Notes under the pieces: model-generated | Told to the model about the DNA's origin: nothing | Databases searched by the model: none | The model's input: only the letters and a program-made list of their open reading frames with translations | Shown here: positions 10,063-28,386 of the stretch, one piece after another | How the letters are laid out: every line of letters starts with the position of its first letter | How positions within the stretch are numbered: the stretch's first letter is position 1 | Made by a program: the position numbers and the translations under genes | Assembly: GCF_936981045.1 (NCBI RefSeq) | Contig: NZ_OW441264.1 | Span: 480,001-512,000 of the forward strand | DNA: 32,000 nucleotides | Origin: Candidatus Saccharimonadota bacterium | GTDB taxonomy: Bacteria > Bacteroidota > Bacteroidia > Cytophagales > Amoebophilaceae | Direction: 5' to 3'

Positions 10063-10728
10063 AAAGTTAAAATAAGCAATTTGAATAGCACTATGGCGCC
10101 TAAACAGCCTGGTTCCTCTAGTGGATCACCCCATCACCTGATCATGGTACCTTTACAGGTGGAACGTAAGGTATAGTAAGTACCAGAAAGATTTTCTAAA
10201 GTTAGAATAAATAATAGCCAAAAGCAAAAATCTGATATCCATTCATATTTTTGGAATTACTAGCCAAAGACAAGAAAAAACGTCTATTTTACTACTTACT
10301 TGAACAGCTAATGGCGTCAACTTAAGGGTTTATTGGTTAGCAAACTCTTCTAAAAACATGATTCCGTCTAGGTTTATCGACCTTGTCTCGACTATATAAT
10401 CGACTTATCCGGATTTTAATTTTAGCACGTATACTGGCTCTATTAAAAAGTCTCTGAAAGCTCTTGGGAGAGCAATCGCCAACAAGAACCTGATACAGTT
10501 TCTGCCTCATTACACCAAATAAAACGGAAAAGTTTAACCGATATTGAGCAATTTGGTCTGGGTTCCAAGCGCCTTGTCTATCACCCATATGAAGTGATAG
10601 TATATTACACATCACTAAGTGTGCCCAAAACTCTTGTAGTACGGCATCTAAGTTTTTTCCAGAGAAATTCTCTAATTCTGAACCTATCTCAAGTCGTTTA
10701 TAACACTCCTCTATGTGCCACCTTAATA

Positions 10729-10969
10729 ACGTGAGTTCGGGATTAGATTATTTTTTCATTTGATAATAAATATCAATGAAAATTTATAAAATTTGTTTTA
10801 TTAGACAGTTAAATAGGTAGTTGAATAACAAATAATTCTGGTAATCAGTTTATTATATATATTATATTTATAAAATTAGATATAAAAACTTGTTAAATAG
10901 GTGCAAATATTAACTAAATAATTGATATTAAATTGTTGTAAATCAGTCAAATAAATCCCGAACTCAGGT
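10729..10969 (+). mobile_element. 241-bp MITE, copy M4 (chimeric flanks)
   Basis: The left flank is IS4 coding sequence (..CCACCTTAATA). The right flank is IS256 coding sequence (TTATATCTAACT..). No TSD. The right TIR is the variant AATCCCGAACTCAGGT. Confidence 0.9.
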
Positions 10970-11111
10970 TTATATCTAACTATTAACTACATGACTAGAA
11001 AATGGATCACCTCTATTCATAACTGGAGCGAGGCTACGGCACATTTTTTAATTAAATTTGAAAACAGAATTGAATAAAACCAAAAAAATAATTTACACAC
11101 TTAAGTGGACA
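10970..11111 (+). mobile_element. IS256-family element, 3' terminal fragment
   Basis: Translates to LYLTINYMTRKWITSIHNWSEATAHFLIKFENRIE*, a typical IS256-family transposase C-terminus. Ends in ATTTACACACTTAA, which matches the terminus at 23651-23665. Confidence 0.8.
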
Positions 11112-11466
11112 GAGACGATTTCTTGAGAACCAGGCAAGCGAACTGAGGAGCCATCTCCAGCAATAACTCTATAACCTCTCCATGTTCCATATGAGGTATC
11201 ATCTTGATAAGCTGTTTGAAGGCTTAAATCCAATAATTCTTTAAATCCTGTATGAGCAATTTTATATCTTGCCTTTGAAAAAGCTTGCTTGGATGGGGGA
11301 ATTTTAAAAGTTGATGGTTCCATAAGTTCACACTCTATACCTAAACTTTTTTTAACTAACCTCAAAATCATAGAAAATACCACTGGAAATGTAAGTTTTC
11401 TCCTGCGTGTGAAACTATTTTTTGCCAAACAATGCTTCACTGGAAACTTACGCAAGTGTATGGTAT

Positions 11467-11706
11467 ACGTGAGTTCGGGATTTATTTGACTGATTTACAA
11501 CAATTTAATATCAATTATTTAGTTAATATTTACACCTATTTAACAAGTTTTTATATCTAATTTTATAAATATAATATATATAATAAACTGATTATCAGAA
11601 TTATTTGTTATTCAACTACCTATTTAACTGTCTATAAAACAAATTTTATAAATTTTCATTGATATTGATTATCAAATGAAAAAATAATCTAATCCCGAAC
11701 TCACGT
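11467..11706 (-). mobile_element. 240-bp MITE, copy M5
   Basis: 16-bp TIRs. 6-bp TSD TGGTAT (11461-11466 and 11707-11712), confirmed against the uninterrupted IS4 leader of copy C (30663-30680). Confidence 0.92.
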
Positions 11707-12008
11707 TGGTATCTTTAATTCGTAAAATAAGATTTTTCCCTTTCTCTACCATGTCTTTATATAAAAAAGTACATTTTAAACTTTATTCATCAAATAATAC
11801 AGAGGGAAAGTCTTTTTTATAGAATTAAAAGACAATTATAGGTAGATACTTGAAGGGAAAAATCAAACAATACTAAGCAAATAATTACTCATATTTTCCC
11901 TTAAGTTGACGCCATTGCTTGAACAGATACAAAAGCGAATGGATAAAGTAAAGAAGTCATACCACACCCTATCAAGCAATGGATTTGGGTAGCAGCTAAG
12001 GCAACGGA

Positions 12009-12887
12009 TCATTGGGCTTGCCACCTTTTTAAGCAAATAGCAAGACTATGTTGCCAGTGGGGAATCTTTATCTGGAATACTTCTCGAAAAGAAGACTTGC
12101 TTAGTACACTGTAGTAAGGCCTTTTAAGATCTACTACAGATGATGATAGGGGCATCAAGGAACATCTATTTGAAAAGGTAGTTACAATGGCATAGGCAAA
12201 ATCATACCAACTGGCTACGCCCTCATTGGTGTAATGATAAATACCCGAGGGGTAGTGCTCTGGATTATGTTTGGCCATTTTTTCAATAATCTCCCAAATG
12301 GCGGTTGCCAGGTCATAGACGTAGGTAGGACTGCCTATTTGGTCATCGACCATTTGAATGGTGCGTCCTTGCTGGGCCAATGCAGCTATTTTTGTAAAAA
12401 AATTATTACCCTTTTCGCCATACAACCATGCCGTTCGAATGATATAAAAATGGGTAGCCTGTTCAGCTACCAGCTGTTCACCAGTTCGTTTGGATCGCCC
12501 ATATTGATTCAGTGGATCAGTAGGATCATCTGGCCTTAATGGACGCCCTATGGTCGCACCAAATACATAGTCTGTTGAAATGTGGAAGAGTACAACATGG
12601 TATTTTGCAGCTAATGCAGCCAAGTGGCCCGCACCTATACTATTTACTTTAAAACAGCTTGCTACTTCTTGCTCTGCCAATTGCACATCGGTACAGGCTG
12701 CACAGTTTATGATGTATTGGATTGCATGTGCTTTGAGGTAAGACTCTATTTGATCTGGATCGGTAATATCCAGCACGGACTTACTGCAAAACAGTGGTGC
12801 AAGTAAGGAATAGGCTTTGAAGGTAGCCTGTAATGCACCACCTAACAGCCCTTCTGAACCAGTGATTAAAACACCAGGGATAGCCAT
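12009..12887 (-). CDS. rfbD: dTDP-4-dehydrorhamnose reductase
   Basis: 292 aa. N-terminal Rossmann motif LITGSEGLLGG, and the RmlD-type ISTDYVF ... YGRSKRTGEQ catalytic region. Confidence 0.85.
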   Translation of the reverse strand: MAIPGVLITGSEGLLGGALQATFKAYSLLAPLFCSKSVLDITDPDQIESYLKAHAIQYIINCAACTDVQLAEQEVASCFKVNSIGAGHLAALAAKYHVVLFHISTDYVFGATIGRPLRPDDPTDPLNQYGRSKRTGEQLVAEQATHFYIIRTAWLYGEKGNNFFTKIAALAQQGRTIQMVDDQIGSPTYVYDLATAIWEIIEKMAKHNPEHYPSGIYHYTNEGVASWYDFAYAIVTTFSNRCSLMPLSSSVVDLKRPYYSVLSKSSFREVFQIKIPHWQHSLAICLKRWQAQ

Positions 12888-12908: not shown

Positions 12909-13125
12909 TTTTTGCTTGATCAAAAAGTAACACAATATCAGGCCTATCCTTAAAGCTGGAAAATCAGAAGCCGTCCCGCACCCGCACTAAACTGATGTTT
13001 TCCCTCTTTAAGGGTAACCTTCCTACTAGAAACTCTTTACAAGAGGCGGTTTTTCTTATTGATAGGCAGAATAGCCAGAAGGAGAAAGTGCCACTTCTGA
13101 ATAGTGTCTACTGCTTTTCCTTACT
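12909..13125. repeat. Unclassified intergenic repeat, copy R-b
   Basis: Shares with 25140-25345 the stretch TTTGCTTGAT.AAAAA ... CTTAAAG.TGGAAAATCAG..CCGTCCCG ... CTGAT.TTT ... TCTTTAAGGGTA ... TACAA.GG ... TTCTGAATA. Imperfect hairpin between 12949-12967 and 12992-13012. Confidence 0.55.
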
Positions 13126-17457: not shown

Positions 17458-17472
17458 TTTTAAGTGTTTTAA

Positions 17473-19431
17473 GTCTGCAGCCATTGCACGCCGGCACAGG
17501 TGTGCAACAAATGGGGTGTAAGTCCCCTGACTCTAATTTGTCTATTTCGGGAGTCTAGCAGGAGGTTGGATTTGTGGGGTGATTCACAGGTTTAAGTTAC
17601 CTTTAAATGCATCTGCAAAATAGCGGGCTGCAACAAAAGTGAACCTAAATTAGCCTCGTTAAGCCGTTTAAGCGCATTTGCCGACTATCTAGTGGCTACA
17701 GGAAGGCTGATAGTAGGATGGAAAAAATAGACCATGACCATCATACAAGTGCCGGGGTGTTAGGGGTTGCACGCTATGAATGTTTCACATCGTAGTCCGG
17801 GAGATCTGATATGAATCCAGTAGGCCACTGGAAACTTTATTGTATAAGTAAAGCGAAATCAATAAGGGTGATATCAGAAGTCCGCGGGGTCTATAATACC
17901 GTTCGTATTGATTGGGAAACCACTCAAGAGGAAAGGGACCCTACTTCAGTTAACGAGTTTAAAAGAGTTGAGAATGTCTGATTGCCCTAAAGCTATGAAC
18001 GGAACATTAAAAGTTCAGCAACTCCAAAGAACTCTATATCTCAAATCCAAGCAATGTAAGGAAGTCAGATTTTATAGTATATATGATAAAATTTATCTAA
18101 AAGATGTACTTTGGGAAGCTTGGCGTCAAGTCAAAGCAAATCAAGGTTCAGCAGGGATTGATGGTAAAAGCATAAGTGATATAATAGATCAAGGTGAGGC
18201 AAAGATTATCAATAAATTGCAGCAGCAACTACGCGCAAAGCTATACAAATTTACCTCAAGCAGGTTGGTAGAAATACCCAAAGCTAAAGGTGGAACAAGG
18301 CCACTAGAGGTAATGACCGTAGAAGATCTCATAGTGCTCACAGCAATGAAAATAGTCATTGAACCGATCTTCGAAGCTGATTTTCATGAATGTTCATACG
18401 GCTATAGACCGAAACGAGGAGCCAAACAAGCGAGTTTAGTGATCCGAGAAGATCTATACCAGCAGGCATGGGGCGTAGTTGAGATTGATTTTCAATCATA
18501 CTTTATTAGCATCCCACATGAAAAGTTATTAAAACTTATTAGTAAAAGGATAGCAGATGGCAGTATGTTGAAGCTAATTAAACAAACCCTAACAACGTCA
18601 ATAGTAAAACAAGGTAAAATTACATGCAAGAAAGTTGGAGTACCGCAAGGATCACCAATATCACCGTTGTATAGTAATATCTACCTAAATGTTATAGACC
18701 AAGTGTGGCACTCAAGGGGGTATCCAGAAAAGCTAAGCGCAACCTTGCATAGGTATTGTGATGATGCAATTTTGGTATGTCGTAAGAGTGCTAGCTTAGC
18801 GCTGGAGAAATTCACAGAATTAGTAAGGAGGTTATCGCTCATTATTAACCACCAAAAGACACGAATAACGAAACTGAAAGAAGGCTTTAACTTCATAGGT
18901 TTTTACTTTGTAAAAAGAAAGAGTCCAACAAGTGGCAGAAATAGCATTTATGTATTTCCAACGAAACAATCCCAACAAAGCATCCGTAACAGACTAAAAT
19001 ACCTGACTTGTAGAAAAGCACCAATCAAACCTCAAACATTCATCGAGCAAATAAAACCAGTAGTGTTAGGATGGGTTAACTATTTTAAACATACGAATTC
19101 CAGTGAAGCTTTTGTTAGATTGCAGAACTTTATTAATAACCGATTTCGCAGATACTTAACCCATAGAAGAAAAGGCCGTGGGTGTGGGTGGCAAAGCTAT
19201 CCCAATAGCAAACTCTATACAATGGGGATGTTGTACATTGGTAGTGGAATGATTAAGTATCCTGAGAGAGTTGTGCAAAGTTTATGAAGAAGACTGTCGG
19301 ACCGCCCTATTCGGGAAAACTGAACGTACCTTAGGATGAGAAGGGAATGGGTAAACAATGAAGAATCAAGTTAGTCAGCTACTGTATTGCGAGCAATCAG
19401 AAGCAATAGATATGCTTAATTTTAAGTGGTC
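17473..19431 (+). mobile_element. Group II intron (copy 2, apparently full length; boundaries approximate)
   Basis: About 500 nt of relatively GC-rich structured sequence lies upstream of an RT/maturase ORF, and about 140 nt downstream. The 5' part is shared with copy 1. I could not place the GUGYG 5' end or domain V by eye, so each end is uncertain by tens of nt. Confidence 0.7.
17974..19287 (+). CDS. Group II intron reverse transcriptase/maturase
   Basis: RT blocks are present (GIDGKS, RPLEVMTVEDLIVLTAMK, GVPQGSPISPLYSNIYL, YCDDAILV in place of YADD), with a maturase X-domain-like LGWVNYF. No obvious HNH endonuclease tail. The track ORF starts at a TTG (17908); the ATG at 17974 is more plausible. 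Confidence 0.88.
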   Translation: MSDCPKAMNGTLKVQQLQRTLYLKSKQCKEVRFYSIYDKIYLKDVLWEAWRQVKANQGSAGIDGKSISDIIDQGEAKIINKLQQQLRAKLYKFTSSRLVEIPKAKGGTRPLEVMTVEDLIVLTAMKIVIEPIFEADFHECSYGYRPKRGAKQASLVIREDLYQQAWGVVEIDFQSYFISIPHEKLLKLISKRIADGSMLKLIKQTLTTSIVKQGKITCKKVGVPQGSPISPLYSNIYLNVIDQVWHSRGYPEKLSATLHRYCDDAILVCRKSASLALEKFTELVRRLSLIINHQKTRITKLKEGFNFIGFYFVKRKSPTSGRNSIYVFPTKQSQQSIRNRLKYLTCRKAPIKPQTFIEQIKPVVLGWVNYFKHTNSSEAFVRLQNFINNRFRRYLTHRRKGRGCGWQSYPNSKLYTMGMLYIGSGMIKYPERVVQSL

Positions 19432-21907: not shown

Positions 21908-21999
21908 TAGCTTTGGCTTATAACATCGTTGCATTTACTTACATGCATGATCATCTGGCTCTTTTTATATCCTTTGACCGTGTCCATAAATAGTGTATA

Positions 22000-22239
22000 A
22001 CGTGAGTTCGGGATTTATTTGACTGATTTACAACAATTTAATATCAATTATTTAGTTAATATTTGCACCTATTTAACAAGTTTTTATATCTAATTTTATA
22101 AATATAATATATATAATAAACTGATTATCAGAATTATTTGTTATTCAACTACCTATTTAACTGTCTATAAAACAAATTTTATAAATTTTTATTAATATTG
22201 ATTATCAAATGAAAAAATAATCTAATCCCGAACTCACGT
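22000..22239 (-). mobile_element. 240-bp MITE, copy M7 (chimeric flanks)
   Basis: 16-bp TIRs. The right flank is IS256 coding sequence, and the left flank is unrelated. No true TSD. Confidence 0.9.
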
Positions 22240-23606
22240 ATATAATGTTTTAAAAACAGCTAGATCGTTAGGGAACACTTTTTTATTTTTGGTAACTCTA
22301 CGAAATTGGCTATTTACAGATTCCAAACATTTGTTGTGTAAATGACCTTACGTATGGCATTAGGGTACTGTAAAAATACCATCAGATTATCCCAGTTAGC
22401 ATACCAAGATTGGGCTATTTGTGGGTATTGTTGATTCCACTTAGTAGCAAAAGCTTCTAAGGCCATCAATGCTTCTTGCTCGGTAACTGCTGTATAAATT
22501 GGTTTTAAATCAGCAACTAATACCTTTCTATGTTTATAAGAAACATACTGCAAACTACCCCTAATTGCATGAACAATACAGAGCTGATGTTCCGTTTTTG
22601 GGTATACAGCAGCAATGGCCTCAGACATGCCTGACAAATTATCTGTACATGCAATGAGCATATCGTTCATACCCCGATTTTTGAGTTCTGTTAAATTGCC
22701 TAACCAAAATTTAGCCCCTTCATTTTCACTCATCCAAAGCCCTAAAACATCCTTTATGCCAGATCTATCTATACACGTGAGTTCGGGATTAGATTATTTT
22801 TTCATTTGATAATCAATATTAATAAAAATTTATAAAATTTGTTTTATTAGACAGTTAAATAGGTAGTTGAATAACAAATAATTCTGATAATCAGTTTATT
22901 ATATATATTATATTTATAAAATTAGATATAAAAACTTGTTAAATAGGTGCAAATATTAACTAAATAATTGATATTAAATTGTTGTAAATCAGTCAAATAA
23001 ATCCCGAACTCACGTTATACCTAAAGCGACATAGACTGCCTTGTTGATGATGCGCTTATCTTGTCTAACTTTAACTACAAAGCAATCAAAAAAAACAATA
23101 GGATAGACTGATTCTAAGGGACGATTTTGCCATATCTTAACATATTCAATAACAGAGTCTGTGATGTTACTTATCAGGCTTTCACTTACTTCTGCGCCAT
23201 ATAATTCCTGTATTTGAATCTGAATATCTGACAGACTCATACCTTTAGCATGTAAAGATAAGATCTTATCATCCAAACTAGGAATTCTTGTTTGACGATT
23301 AGGCAATAAAATAGGTTCAAAAGTCGATGCTCTATCTCTGGGTACTTCAACCGATATAACGCCATTATCAGTAATAACTTGCTTACTGGATAATCTATTA
23401 CGTACATTCTCTGAATCACTACGTGCATACTTATTATAACCTAAATGGTCATCCATTTCTGACTGTAATGCTTTTTCTACAAGACGCTTACTTAATTGTT
23501 TGAGTAAGCCGTCTTGATCAAAAAGTCTGGAAAGGTCTACACCTGATTCTATCAGTACATCTATGGCCTTGCTTATCCCATCTTTAACTGTCTCTTTTCT
23601 TTTCAT
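22240..23606 (-). pseudogene. IS256-family transposase, split by a MITE, frameshifted and 3'-truncated
   Basis: N-terminal part at 23606-23016 (..VYVALGI). MITE M8. Then continuation at 22774 onward (DRSGIKDVLGLWMSENEGAKFW..). A frameshift near 22330 precedes ..ESVNSQFRRVTKNKKVFPNDLAVFKTLY, which ends at the M7 junction. Confidence 0.88.
22775..23015 (+). mobile_element. 241-bp MITE, copy M8
   Basis: 16-bp TIRs. 5-bp TSD TATAC (22770-22774 and 23016-23020). Inserted within the IS256 transposase codons for ..GI|DR.. Confidence 0.92.
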
Positions 23607-23817
23607 TGTTTTAAGTGTTATGATTTAGGTAAAGATAAATCCTAAAAAATATTTACACACTTAAAACAAAAGATCCGGAGAAAAAGCCTGAATTATTTCA
23701 TACTAATTCTTGCCACTACACTTTGGGACTAAACATCTAAGTAAATAGTATACGGTTTTTATTGATTAACAGGTATCTATATCACACTTTTTAATCCAGC
23801 CAAAAATAACATACAGA

Positions 23818-25139: not shown

Positions 25140-25416
25140 TTTTTGCTTGATTAAAAACTCAACCAAAAATCAAGCGCTGTGTAAAAAGTGCTGAAAGCGT
25201 ATGCTTAAAGTTGGAAAATCAGCATCCGTCCCGTGGCCCCATTGAACTGATTTTCTATACATCTTTAAGGGTAGACTTTCTAATCGTAACCTTGTACAAA
25301 GGGGAATTTTGTACCATAGGCCCAGTAAACAGCATAATTTCTGAATAAATAATTTTATTTTCAATAGGTTATCGCCTGCAGTAACCACTAATCATTGCCT
25401 TAAGTTGATGCTATGG
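25140..25416. repeat. Unclassified intergenic repeat, copy R-c, ending in a degenerate IS4-like terminal repeat
   Basis: Aligns with R-a, R-b and R-d (see those features). CCTTAAGTTGATGCTATGG at 25398-25416 resembles the IS4 IR CCCTTAAGTTGACGCCATTG. Confidence 0.55.
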
Positions 25417-28251: not shown

Positions 28252-28386
28252 ACGTGAGTTCGGGATTAGATTATTTTTTCATTTGATAATCAATATCAAT
28301 GAAAATTTATAAAATTTGTTTTATTAGACAGTTAAATAGGTAGTTGAATAACAAATAATTCTGGTAATCAGTTTATTATATATATT
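28252..28386 (+). mobile_element. MITE, copy M9, left half only (truncated by IS5 copy 2)
   Basis: Begins with the TIR ACGTGAGTTCGGGATTAGATT and follows the MITE consensus for 135 bp, up to the IS5 terminus. Confidence 0.88.

What the first reader, a model, noticed from the sequence alone, without database searches (positions are those of the whole stretch)
10308..11917. Reconstructable nested insertion (IS4 <- IS256 <- MITE) followed by a MITE-MITE recombinational deletion
IS4 copy B still has both IRs and an intact 9-bp TSD, CTTGAACAG, so its ends never moved. The transposase codons between ..QEIVS and RWHIEE.. are missing. In their place are one MITE (M4) and the last ~140 bp of an IS256 element. 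The left flank of M4 is IS4 sequence (CCACCTTAATA; the intact element continues GGTATGC). Its right flank is IS256 coding sequence, and M4 has no TSD. The simplest history is as follows. IS256 inserted into IS4. One MITE inserted into IS4 and another into IS256 in the same orientation. Homologous recombination between the two direct MITE copies then removed everything between them, leaving one chimeric MITE. This shows directly that the 240-bp repeats act as recombination substrates that erode other elements.
Basis: inference. Interest (0 to 1): 0.65.

Follow-up and report, generated by a model that had tools for sequence, protein, structure and literature searches.

The report
MITE-bounded deletion inside a nested insertion sequence
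A dead jumping gene in a spider symbiont's genome has lost its middle, and a small repeat fused to the tail of a second jumping gene sits there instead; this is most likely recombination between two copies of that repeat, an ordinary decay process in a genome whose repeats are already published.

Summary
Window 10308-11917 is an IS4-family element (ISCca13-like) with 19-nt terminal inverted repeats and a 9-bp target duplication, CTTGAACAG. It lacks 487 bp of transposase gene. In their place are one 241-bp MITE (10729-10969) and the last 141-147 bp of an IS256-family element, including the stop codon and the complete right inverted repeat. Both breakpoints are exact, and the MITE has no target duplication.

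The window almost certainly comes from the Cardinium symbiont of Oedothorax gibbosus. Its MITE (MITECca01, 169 copies, IS982-derived) and its IS families were published in 2022.

New here: a second IS256 copy in the window (22240-23676) is broken by a MITE at the same TTATAT site in the same orientation. So IS256 probably carried its MITE before it landed in IS4. The left half of M4 has a different SNP haplotype from that IS256-linked MITE, which fits a chimera.

MITE-MITE homologous recombination is the best explanation (about 0.6). It is inferred, not shown directly. A transposase-mediated adjacent deletion gives the same end product, and the rest of the source genome could not be reached. 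This is an ordinary instance of repeat-mediated erosion, of low to moderate interest.

The parts
10299..10307 (.). Left copy of the 9-bp target site duplication CTTGAACAG of IS4 copy B
   Evidence: Read directly from the sequence. An identical 9-mer lies at 11918-11926.
10308..10728 (-). IS4-family (ISCca13-like) arm. It carries the terminal inverted repeat (10308-10328) and the 3' part of the transposase gene, from codon 295 (LRWHIEE...) to the stop.
   Evidence: 415/419 identical to copy C 31508-31926 and 414/419 to copy A 602-1020. The translation reads LRWHIEECYKRL....
10729..10969 (+). M4, a 241-bp MITE (MITECca01 type). Its ends are ACGTGAGTTCGGGAT and ATCCCGAACTCAGGT. It has no target site duplication. 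Its left flank is IS4 and its right flank is IS256.
   Evidence: 96-98% identical to seven other full copies in the window. Flanks are TTAATA versus TTATAT. SNP haplotype is C,G,T,G at columns 46, 50, 73 and 113.
10970..11116 (+). 3' end of an IS256-family element. It holds the last 35 codons (LYLTINYMTRKW...ENRIE), the stop at 11075-11077 and the right terminal inverted repeat. Bases 11111-11116 (AGAGAC) are shared with IS4, so the junction is ambiguous over 6 nt.
   Evidence: translation, inverted-repeat core. (Pfam PF00872 continuous across the head/tail join). (91% identity, 100% coverage to 406-aa IS256 transposases). (alignment with full elements L003 and L004, where the right repeat ends ...GGACAGAGCC followed by a 9-bp target duplication).
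11111..11466 (-). IS4 central arm, transposase codons about 19-132, ending ...GSQEIVS
   Evidence: 353/356 identical to copy C 30664-31020. ORF 11093-11455 reads ...QEIVS and then runs into the IS256 repeat.
11467..11706 (-). M5, a second MITE in the opposite orientation to M4. It is a simple insertion with a 6-bp target duplication TGGTAT (11461-11466 and 11707-11712).
   Evidence: Copy C supplies the empty site, GTGTATGGTATCTTTAAT, which holds a single TGGTAT.
11707..11917 (-). IS4 5' end, with the transposase start codon (11752-11750) and the terminal inverted repeat (11898-11917)
   Evidence: The N-terminus MVEKGKN matches the annotated 424-aa IS4 transposase P0121.
11918..11926 (.). Right copy of the 9-bp target site duplication CTTGAACAG
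   Evidence: Read directly from the sequence.
22000..22239 (-). MITE that truncates the window's other IS256 copy at the same TTATAT site and in the same orientation as M4. Its far flank (21908-21998) is not IS256, and it has no target duplication.
   Evidence: The IS256 side reads ...AAAACATTATAT|MITE and the M4 side reads MITE|TTATATCTAAC. Intact relatives read AAAACATTATAT(C/T)TAAC with a single TTATAT.
22240..23676 (-). IS256-family 'head', running from the left inverted repeat to codon 372. It carries a 1-nt frameshift near 22320 and a further MITE (22775-23015, 5-bp target duplication TATAC). It lacks exactly the part that copy B retains.
   Evidence: Removing the MITE and 5 bp restores colinearity with the intact relatives.
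30500..31926 (+). IS4 copy C, the reference for the undeleted interior (31021-31507). Its left 42 bp are replaced by the right end of an IS982-family element.
1..1020 (+). IS4 copy A, cut by the window start. It is a second reference with an uninterrupted CCTTAATA|GGTATGC site.
   Evidence: A 1-601 matches C 30907-31507 at 598/601.

Best explanation
Copy B is a decayed IS4-family element (ISCca13 type) sitting between der and rmlD.

Shown:
- It inserted with a 9-bp duplication.
- An IS256-family element lies inside it, and the right terminal repeat of that element abuts IS4 codon 132.
- The retained IS256 part begins exactly at a MITE end.
- The other MITE end abuts IS4 codon 295.
- 487 bp of IS4 and about 1.19 kb of IS256 are missing.

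Inferred history:
1. An IS256 element that already carried a MITECca01 copy at its TTATAT site (codons 371-372) transposed into IS4.
2. A second MITECca01 inserted into IS4 at CCTTAATA|GG, in the same orientation.
3. RecA-dependent homologous recombination between the two direct repeats excised everything between them. The repeats are 241 bp long and about 97-98% identical. About 1.9-2.2 kb was lost, either within one chromosome or by unequal sister exchange.
4. One hybrid MITE remained, with its left flank from the IS4 site and its right flank from the IS256 site, and therefore no target duplication.

A third MITE (M5) inserted independently near the transposase start. The outcome is irreversible inactivation and shortening of two nested insertion sequences.
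For: - Both breakpoints are exact to the base.
- The IS256 tail is complete to its terminal repeat, which marks a true transposition junction.
- Head plus tail reconstitute a full IS256 transposase once a 6-bp TTATAT duplication is removed.
- The same IS256 site is occupied by a MITE, in the same orientation, in the window's other IS256 copy. The right flank of M4 is therefore one half of a genuine MITE insertion.
- The left flank of M4, CTTAATA, resembles other MITE targets.
- M4 differs from the IS256-linked MITE at all four informative SNP columns, all in the left 113 bp. It matches a different sub-group there (M_8228, M_28252), as expected if its left part came from another copy.
- Three of eight full MITEs in 32 kb lack a target duplication, while five have 5-6-bp ones. 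Three of those five were verified against empty sites.
- The genome is reported to hold 169 copies of this MITE (PMC9769881). RecA is reported as conserved in all Cardinium genomes (PMC12342168).
Against: - No undeleted allele was seen. Copies A and C have no MITE at CCTTAATA|GG.
- The right half of the MITE has no informative SNPs, so no crossover point can be located and chimerism is not demonstrated.
- The comparison MITE (22000-22239) is itself probably recombinant, so its haplotype may not represent the IS256-borne copy.
- A single-MITE mechanism yields an identical product.
- The order of events and the locus where they happened are not determined.
Confidence: 0.6

Rival explanations
1. 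Single-MITE adjacent deletion mediated by transposase. Only the IS256-borne MITE ever existed here. Its left end, acted on by the IS982-family (ISCca4) transposase, attacked a nearby preferred target (CCTTAATA|GG) in the same molecule. That deleted the DNA between and created no target duplication.
For: - The end product is identical to what is observed.
- The new left flank, CTTAATA, is a typical target for this MITE family.
- Intact parental ISCca4 copies are reported in the genome (PMC9769881).
Against: - M4 differs at four of four informative sites from the MITE linked to the same IS256 site elsewhere. This needs either independent insertions at one site or gene conversion.
- Adjacent deletions are documented for replicative elements and for some IS4-family and IS1-family elements (own knowledge), not for the IS982 family, whose mechanism is uncharacterised.
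- The terminal repeat of M4 carries a substitution (CTCAGGT).
Confidence: 0.2
2. The IS256 tail in copy B and the IS256 head at 22240-23676 are two halves of one element. They were separated by an inversion or exchange between the inverted MITEs M4 and M_22000, about 11 kb apart. No local deletion occurred.
For: The head and tail are exactly complementary at TTATAT. The two MITEs are in inverted orientation, with head and tail arranged as an inversion would leave them.
Against: - Undoing that inversion would separate the two IS4 arms by 11 kb and invert them. Yet they are now colinear and flanked by a perfect 9-bp duplication.
- The left flank of the IS256 head is not IS4 sequence, and it shares no 8-9-bp duplication with the DNA after the tail.
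- A single IS256 must have both ends in one target.
Confidence: 0.03
3. Assembly artefact. Two direct MITE copies about 2 kb apart were collapsed into one during assembly or polishing, so the real chromosome still holds the undeleted nested structure.
For: A collapse between direct repeats leaves exactly this signature. The genome is 30% mobile elements (PMC9769881).
Against: The published assembly is a single closed contig built with long reads (PMC9769881, PMC9997750). Such reads span 241-bp repeats easily. Other MITE pairs a few hundred bp apart in this window are resolved (11467 and 10729; 22000 and 22775).
Confidence: 0.05
4. A MITE inserted into a pre-existing IS4/IS256 deletion junction that had been made by some other illegitimate event. 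The target duplication later decayed.
For: The flanking 5-mers TAATA and TTATA differ at only one position.
Against: - All 11 bases to the right of M4 (TTATATCTAAC) are native IS256 sequence, as shown by intact relatives.
- The same site holds a MITE in another IS256 copy. The right junction is therefore an original MITE/IS256 junction, not a decayed duplication.
Confidence: 0.03

Closest known systems
MITECca01, ISCca13, ISCca9/ISCca10 and ISCca4 of Cardinium cOegibbosus-W744x776 (Halter et al. 2022, PMC9769881)
   Same: The repeat is about 240 bp and has IS982-type terminal repeats. An IS982-family element with a near-identical end sits in the window. The IS4 transposase is 98% identical to the annotated one of that genome. 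The paper states that the MITE often disrupts other mobile elements.
   Different: As far as its text goes, the paper reports insertions and pseudogenisation. It only speculates about a role in genome streamlining. It does not describe hybrid MITEs lacking target duplications, MITE-bounded deletions, or an IS256 lineage carrying the MITE at a fixed site.
Deletion by homologous recombination between dispersed direct repeats. IS-mediated deletions in host-restricted bacteria are textbook knowledge. Excision of a MITE-flanked integron by homologous recombination is cited in PMC3184786.
   Same: One hybrid repeat remains. Its flanks come from two different insertion sites, and the material between them is lost.
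   Different: Here the substrates are 241-bp non-autonomous elements, and the DNA lost is itself two nested insertion sequences. The event is inferred from one end product, not observed.
IS-mediated adjacent deletion by intramolecular transposition (classical for IS1, IS903/IS10 and IS26; own knowledge)
   Same: It gives a deletion that starts exactly at an element end and has no target duplication.
   Different: It needs only one element and an active transposase. It is not documented for the IS982 family. It does not predict a haplotype switch in the retained element.

Membership tests
MITECca01 (IS982/ISCca4-derived MITE) | About 240 bp, non-coding, with terminal inverted repeats like those of ISCca4 | tested here: met
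   M4 is 241 bp with ends ACGTGAGTTCGGGAT and ATCCCGAACTCAGGT. The IS982-family element at 29665-30499 (PF13612, E = 1.9e-68) ends ATCCCGAACTGAGGT. The description in PMC9769881 matches.
MITECca01 (IS982/ISCca4-derived MITE) | Many dispersed near-identical copies with short target duplications | tested here: met
   The window holds eight full copies and one partial copy at 96-98% identity. Five copies have 5-6-bp duplications, and three of these were checked against empty sites. M4 itself has none.
IS4 family (ISCca13) | DDE transposase of the IS4 type | tested here: met
   Copy C ORF hits PF01609 at E = 7.5e-15. It is 98% identical to the annotated IS4 family transposase P0121. In copy B, residues 133-295 are deleted.
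IS4 family (ISCca13) | Terminal inverted repeats and a 9-12-bp target duplication | tested here: met
   A 19-nt perfect inverted repeat and the 9-bp CTTGAACAG on both sides.
IS256 family | Mutator-type transposase (PF00872) | tested here: met
   The tail joined to the window's head copy matches profile positions 15-378 of 379 in one stretch, E = 7.8e-115. It is 91% identical to 406-aa IS256 transposases.
IS256 family | Imperfect terminal inverted repeats of about 26 nt | tested here: met
   The right repeat...TTTACACACTTAAGTGGACAGAG(AC), matches the left repeat of the head copy (core of 14/14) and the right repeat of the full element L003.
IS256 family | 8-9-bp target duplication at the insertion into IS4 | not testable with these tools
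   The left end of this IS256 copy is inside the deleted segment.
Repeat-mediated homologous-recombination deletion | A single repeat at the junction whose two flanks belong to two different insertion sites, with no target duplication | tested here: met
   Left flank is IS4 CCTTAATA. Right flank is IS256 TTATAT, shown to be half of a real MITE insertion.
Repeat-mediated homologous-recombination deletion | The retained repeat is a sequence chimera of two parental copies | tested here: inconclusive
   The left 113 bp differ at 4 of 4 informative sites from the IS256-linked MITE. The right half has no informative sites, and the comparator may itself be recombinant.
Repeat-mediated homologous-recombination deletion | An undeleted ancestral allele with two direct repeats exists | not testable with these tools
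   The source genome is withheld. The MITE is absent from all scanned collections. Copies A and C carry no MITE at the site.
Repeat-mediated homologous-recombination deletion | The host has the recombination machinery | not tested
   Literature only. RecA is reported as conserved in all sequenced Cardinium genomes (PMC12342168).

The most novel reading that the evidence does not exclude
MITECca01 is not only an insertional mutagen. It may be the main recombination substrate that purges insertion sequences from this genome. On this reading, about a third of its 169 copies would be hybrid, duplication-less products of MITE-MITE exchange. An IS256 sub-lineage would have spread while carrying the MITE at a fixed site, seeding recombination-prone repeats inside other elements. 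That would give a concrete mechanism for the 'genome streamlining' role that the 2022 paper only suggested.
Probability: 0.35. Interest if true: 0.45.

Novelty: new member of a known kind. Interest (0 to 1): 0.25.

Why it matters
Host-restricted symbionts first accumulate mobile elements and later lose them, and how the loss happens is rarely visible. This locus gives one clean, base-resolved example in which a tiny non-autonomous repeat marks the edge of a deletion that destroyed two nested insertion sequences. If a genome-wide census confirmed it as typical, it would turn a published speculation about MITEs aiding genome streamlining into a measurable process. On its own it is one anecdote of a textbook mechanism, in a genome whose repeats have already been curated.

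Tried and rejected
- Looked for the same genome or sister strains. Exact-protein look-ups of Der, EF-G, the IS4 transposase P0121 and the IS256 transposase P0005 found nothing on record. S10 returned only a relative with 88% identical DNA (Cardinium of Philonthus spinipes, L001), where der and rmlD are adjacent with no IS4.
- Tried to use L001 as an empty site for IS4 copy B and for M_8228. The intergenic DNA is too diverged to align.
- Scanned viral, genome and metagenome collections for a 22-mer of the MITE. There were no hits, in line with the paper's statement that the MITE is strain-specific.
- A scan for end-gap-end of the MITE found only unrelated MITE-like elements in other phyla.
- Tested whether the IS256 head and tail are one element split by an inversion. 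Rejected on the IS4 target duplication and on non-matching IS256 flanks.
- Considered that the left flank of M_8228 (TGCAACTTAATA) might be IS4-derived. It matches at only 9 of 12 positions, so it is target preference or chance.
- An Rfam scan of the window found only a group II intron domain. The MITE folds as a long hairpin through its terminal repeats, as expected.

Full report
**What is there**

A self-comparison of the window and direct reading show an IS4-family element at 10308-11917.
- Its ends form a 19-nt perfect inverted repeat (AATGGCGTCAACTTAAGGG), with one extra base at the left tip.
- It is flanked by CTTGAACAG at 10299-10307 and 11918-11926.
- It lies between der (8746-10062) and rmlD (12009-12887). 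In a related Cardinium genome these two genes are adjacent with no IS4 between them.

Three stretches of the element match the two other IS4 copies in the window (A at 1-1020, C at 30500-31926) at about 99%:

| Copy B | Copy C |
|---|---|
| 10310-10728 | 31926-31508 |
| 11111-11466 | 31020-30664 |
| 11713-11875 | 30663-30503 |

C 31021-31507 (487 bp) is missing from B. That is residues 133-295 of the 424-aa transposase P0121.

**What replaces the missing part**

Two things fill the gap.

1. *A MITE.* 10729-10969 is a 241-bp MITE with ends ACGTGAGTTCGGGAT and ATCCCGAACTCAGGT. It is one of eight full copies and one partial copy in the window, 96-98% alike. The IS4/MITE junction is exact: CCACCTTAATA|ACGTGAG in B against CCACCTTAATA|GGTATGC in C.

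2. *An IS256 tail.* 10970-11110 has no other copy in the window.
   - It translates as LYLTINYMTRKWITSIHNWSEATAHFLIKFENRIE, then a stop.
   - It ends in ...TTTACACACTTAAGTGGACAGAG(AC). The core of this repeat equals the left terminal repeat of the IS256-family copy at 22240-23676.

I joined that head copy to the tail, after removing MITE 22775-23015 with its 5-bp duplication and one copy of TTATAT. The result is a single reading frame apart from one frameshift.
- It matches Pfam Transposase_mut positions 15-378 of 379 in one stretch, E = 7.8e-115.
- It is 91% identical over its full length to 406-aa IS256 transposases of another Cardinium.

Alignment with two full elements (L003, L004) adds two points. 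The tail reaches the very end of the right inverted repeat. Intact elements have a single TTATAT where the MITE sits.

**Source and prior knowledge**

- That genome's proteins cannot be traced to contigs here.
- The MITE is absent from every collection scanned.
- Halter et al. 2022 (PMC9769881) describe this genome. It has 300 ISs, including ISCca13 (IS4, 9 copies), ISCca9/ISCca10 (IS256, 35 and 26 copies) and ISCca4 (IS982). It also has a strain-specific 240-bp MITE, MITECca01, with 169 copies, derived from ISCca4, that 'disrupts other mobile elements'.
- The window agrees. An IS982-family ORF (29892-30485, PF13612) ends in ATCCCGAACTGAGGT.

All the component elements are therefore known. The paper does not describe MITE-bounded deletions.

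**A new fact that changes the history**

The IS256 head copy at 22240-23676 stops at a MITE (22000-22239) placed at the same TTATAT site and in the same orientation relative to IS256 as M4.
- The head reads ...AAAACATTATAT|MITE.
- Copy B reads MITE|TTATATCTAAC.

The two fragments are exactly complementary. Yet they cannot be one element.
- The DNA outside the head's left repeat is not IS4.
- That DNA shares no 8-9-bp duplication with the DNA after the tail.
- Undoing an M4/M_22000 inversion would tear apart an IS4 that now has colinear arms and a perfect 9-bp duplication.

The economical reading is an IS256 sub-lineage that already carried the MITE at that site and then landed at several places, one of them inside IS4 copy B. 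The right junction of M4 is thus one half of a genuine MITE insertion. Its left junction belongs to a different site.

**Mechanism**

Two routes give the observed product.

- *Route (a): recombination between two MITEs.* A second MITE inserted into IS4 at CCTTAATA|GG in direct orientation. Homologous recombination with the IS256-borne MITE then removed about 1.9-2.2 kb. That comprises 487 bp of IS4, about 1.19 kb of IS256, one MITE and the small duplications.
- *Route (b): a single-MITE deletion.* The left end of the one IS256-borne MITE was transposed intramolecularly to that site.

The evidence leans towards (a).
- Among the window's MITEs the only shared polymorphisms are at alignment columns 46, 50, 73 and 113. 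M4 has C,G,T,G, like M_8228 and M_28252. The IS256-linked M_22000 has T,A,-,A.
- Three of eight full MITEs lack a target duplication (M4, M_22000, M_8228). The other five have 5-6-bp ones, and three of those were verified against empty sites.
- RecA is reported as conserved in Cardinium (PMC12342168).

The evidence is still weak.
- The right half of the MITE has no informative sites, so no crossover can be placed.
- M_22000 is itself probably recombinant.
- No ancestral allele is available.

I put (a) at about 0.6, (b) at about 0.2, and an assembly collapse, a split-element inversion or an insertion into a pre-existing junction together at about 0.1. The remainder covers unlisted histories. 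'Shows directly' is therefore an overstatement.

**Other caveats**

- The target duplication fixes where the ends inserted. It does not fix where the internal events happened, because a deleted derivative with intact ends could be mobilised by one of the four intact ISCca13 copies.
- Copy C, used as the 'intact' reference, lacks its outer 42 bp.
- The IS256/IS4 junction is ambiguous over AGAGAC (11111-11116). These six bases are both the expected IS256 terminus and native IS4 codons V131-S132. This coincidence is unexplained.

**Verdict**

This is a tidy, base-resolved instance of repeat-mediated erosion of nested insertion sequences, in a genome whose repeats have already been curated and published. 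It is a new member of a known kind and of modest interest. A census of the 169 MITE copies in the full genome would settle both the mechanism and how general it is.

Noticed in passing
window 11111-11116 (and copy C 31015-31020): The six bases AGAGAC at the IS256/IS4 junction are both the expected terminal bases of the IS256 right inverted repeat (relatives end ...GGACAGAGCC) and native IS4 sequence (codons V131-S132). Either IS256 inserted next to a copy of its own end, or the junction involves microhomology.
   Followed up: partly
window 22000-23676: This IS256 pseudogene carries two MITEs and a frameshift. Its 3' end is cut off at a MITE whose other flank (21908-21998, just downstream of mnmE) is unrelated DNA. 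It looks like a second MITE-bounded truncation, mirroring copy B.
   Followed up: partly
window 8228-8468: This MITE between der and the MlaD-like gene has no target duplication. Its flanks ACTTAATA and TATTAAGT form an 8-nt inverted repeat. Its left flank resembles the IS4 site used by M4.
   Followed up: partly
window 30485-30503 and 29665-30499: The left end of IS4 copy C is replaced by the right end of an IS982-family (ISCca4-like) pseudogene. Its terminal repeat ATCCCGAACTGAGGT is nearly that of the MITE, consistent with the published parentage of the MITE.
   Followed up: yes
window 28252-29665: The left 135 bp of a MITE abut an IS5-family element (about 28378-29590). A 5'-truncated ISCca4 follows. 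The missing MITE half is not on the other side, so this is another chimeric junction, possibly made by recombination between IS5 copies.
   Followed up: partly
window 1025-2134 and 17464-19287: There are two copies of a group II intron (RT/maturase ORF 17908-19287; Rfam group-II-D1D4-4 at 17510-17638). The copy at 1025-2134 is inverted. It carries MITE 1172-1411 with a 5-bp duplication and is flanked by IS4 copy A and another MITE.
   Followed up: partly
loci L005-L013: Elements of 234-246 bp with exactly the same 15-nt ends (ACGTGAGTTCGGGAT...ATCCCGAACTCACGT) occur in MAGs of Parafilimonas, Chitinophagaceae, 'UASB270', Neisseria and a deltaproteobacterium. They have unrelated interiors, and some are flanked by 6-7-bp duplications. 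This suggests that IS982-type elements with this conserved end have spawned MITEs independently in several phyla. The 226-256-bp length range was imposed by the search pattern.
   Followed up: partly
window 13005-13053 and 25262-25310: A 49-nt direct repeat (71% identical) lies in two intergenic regions, one between rmlD and rpsJ and one between rmuC and accD. Its nature is unknown.
   Followed up: no
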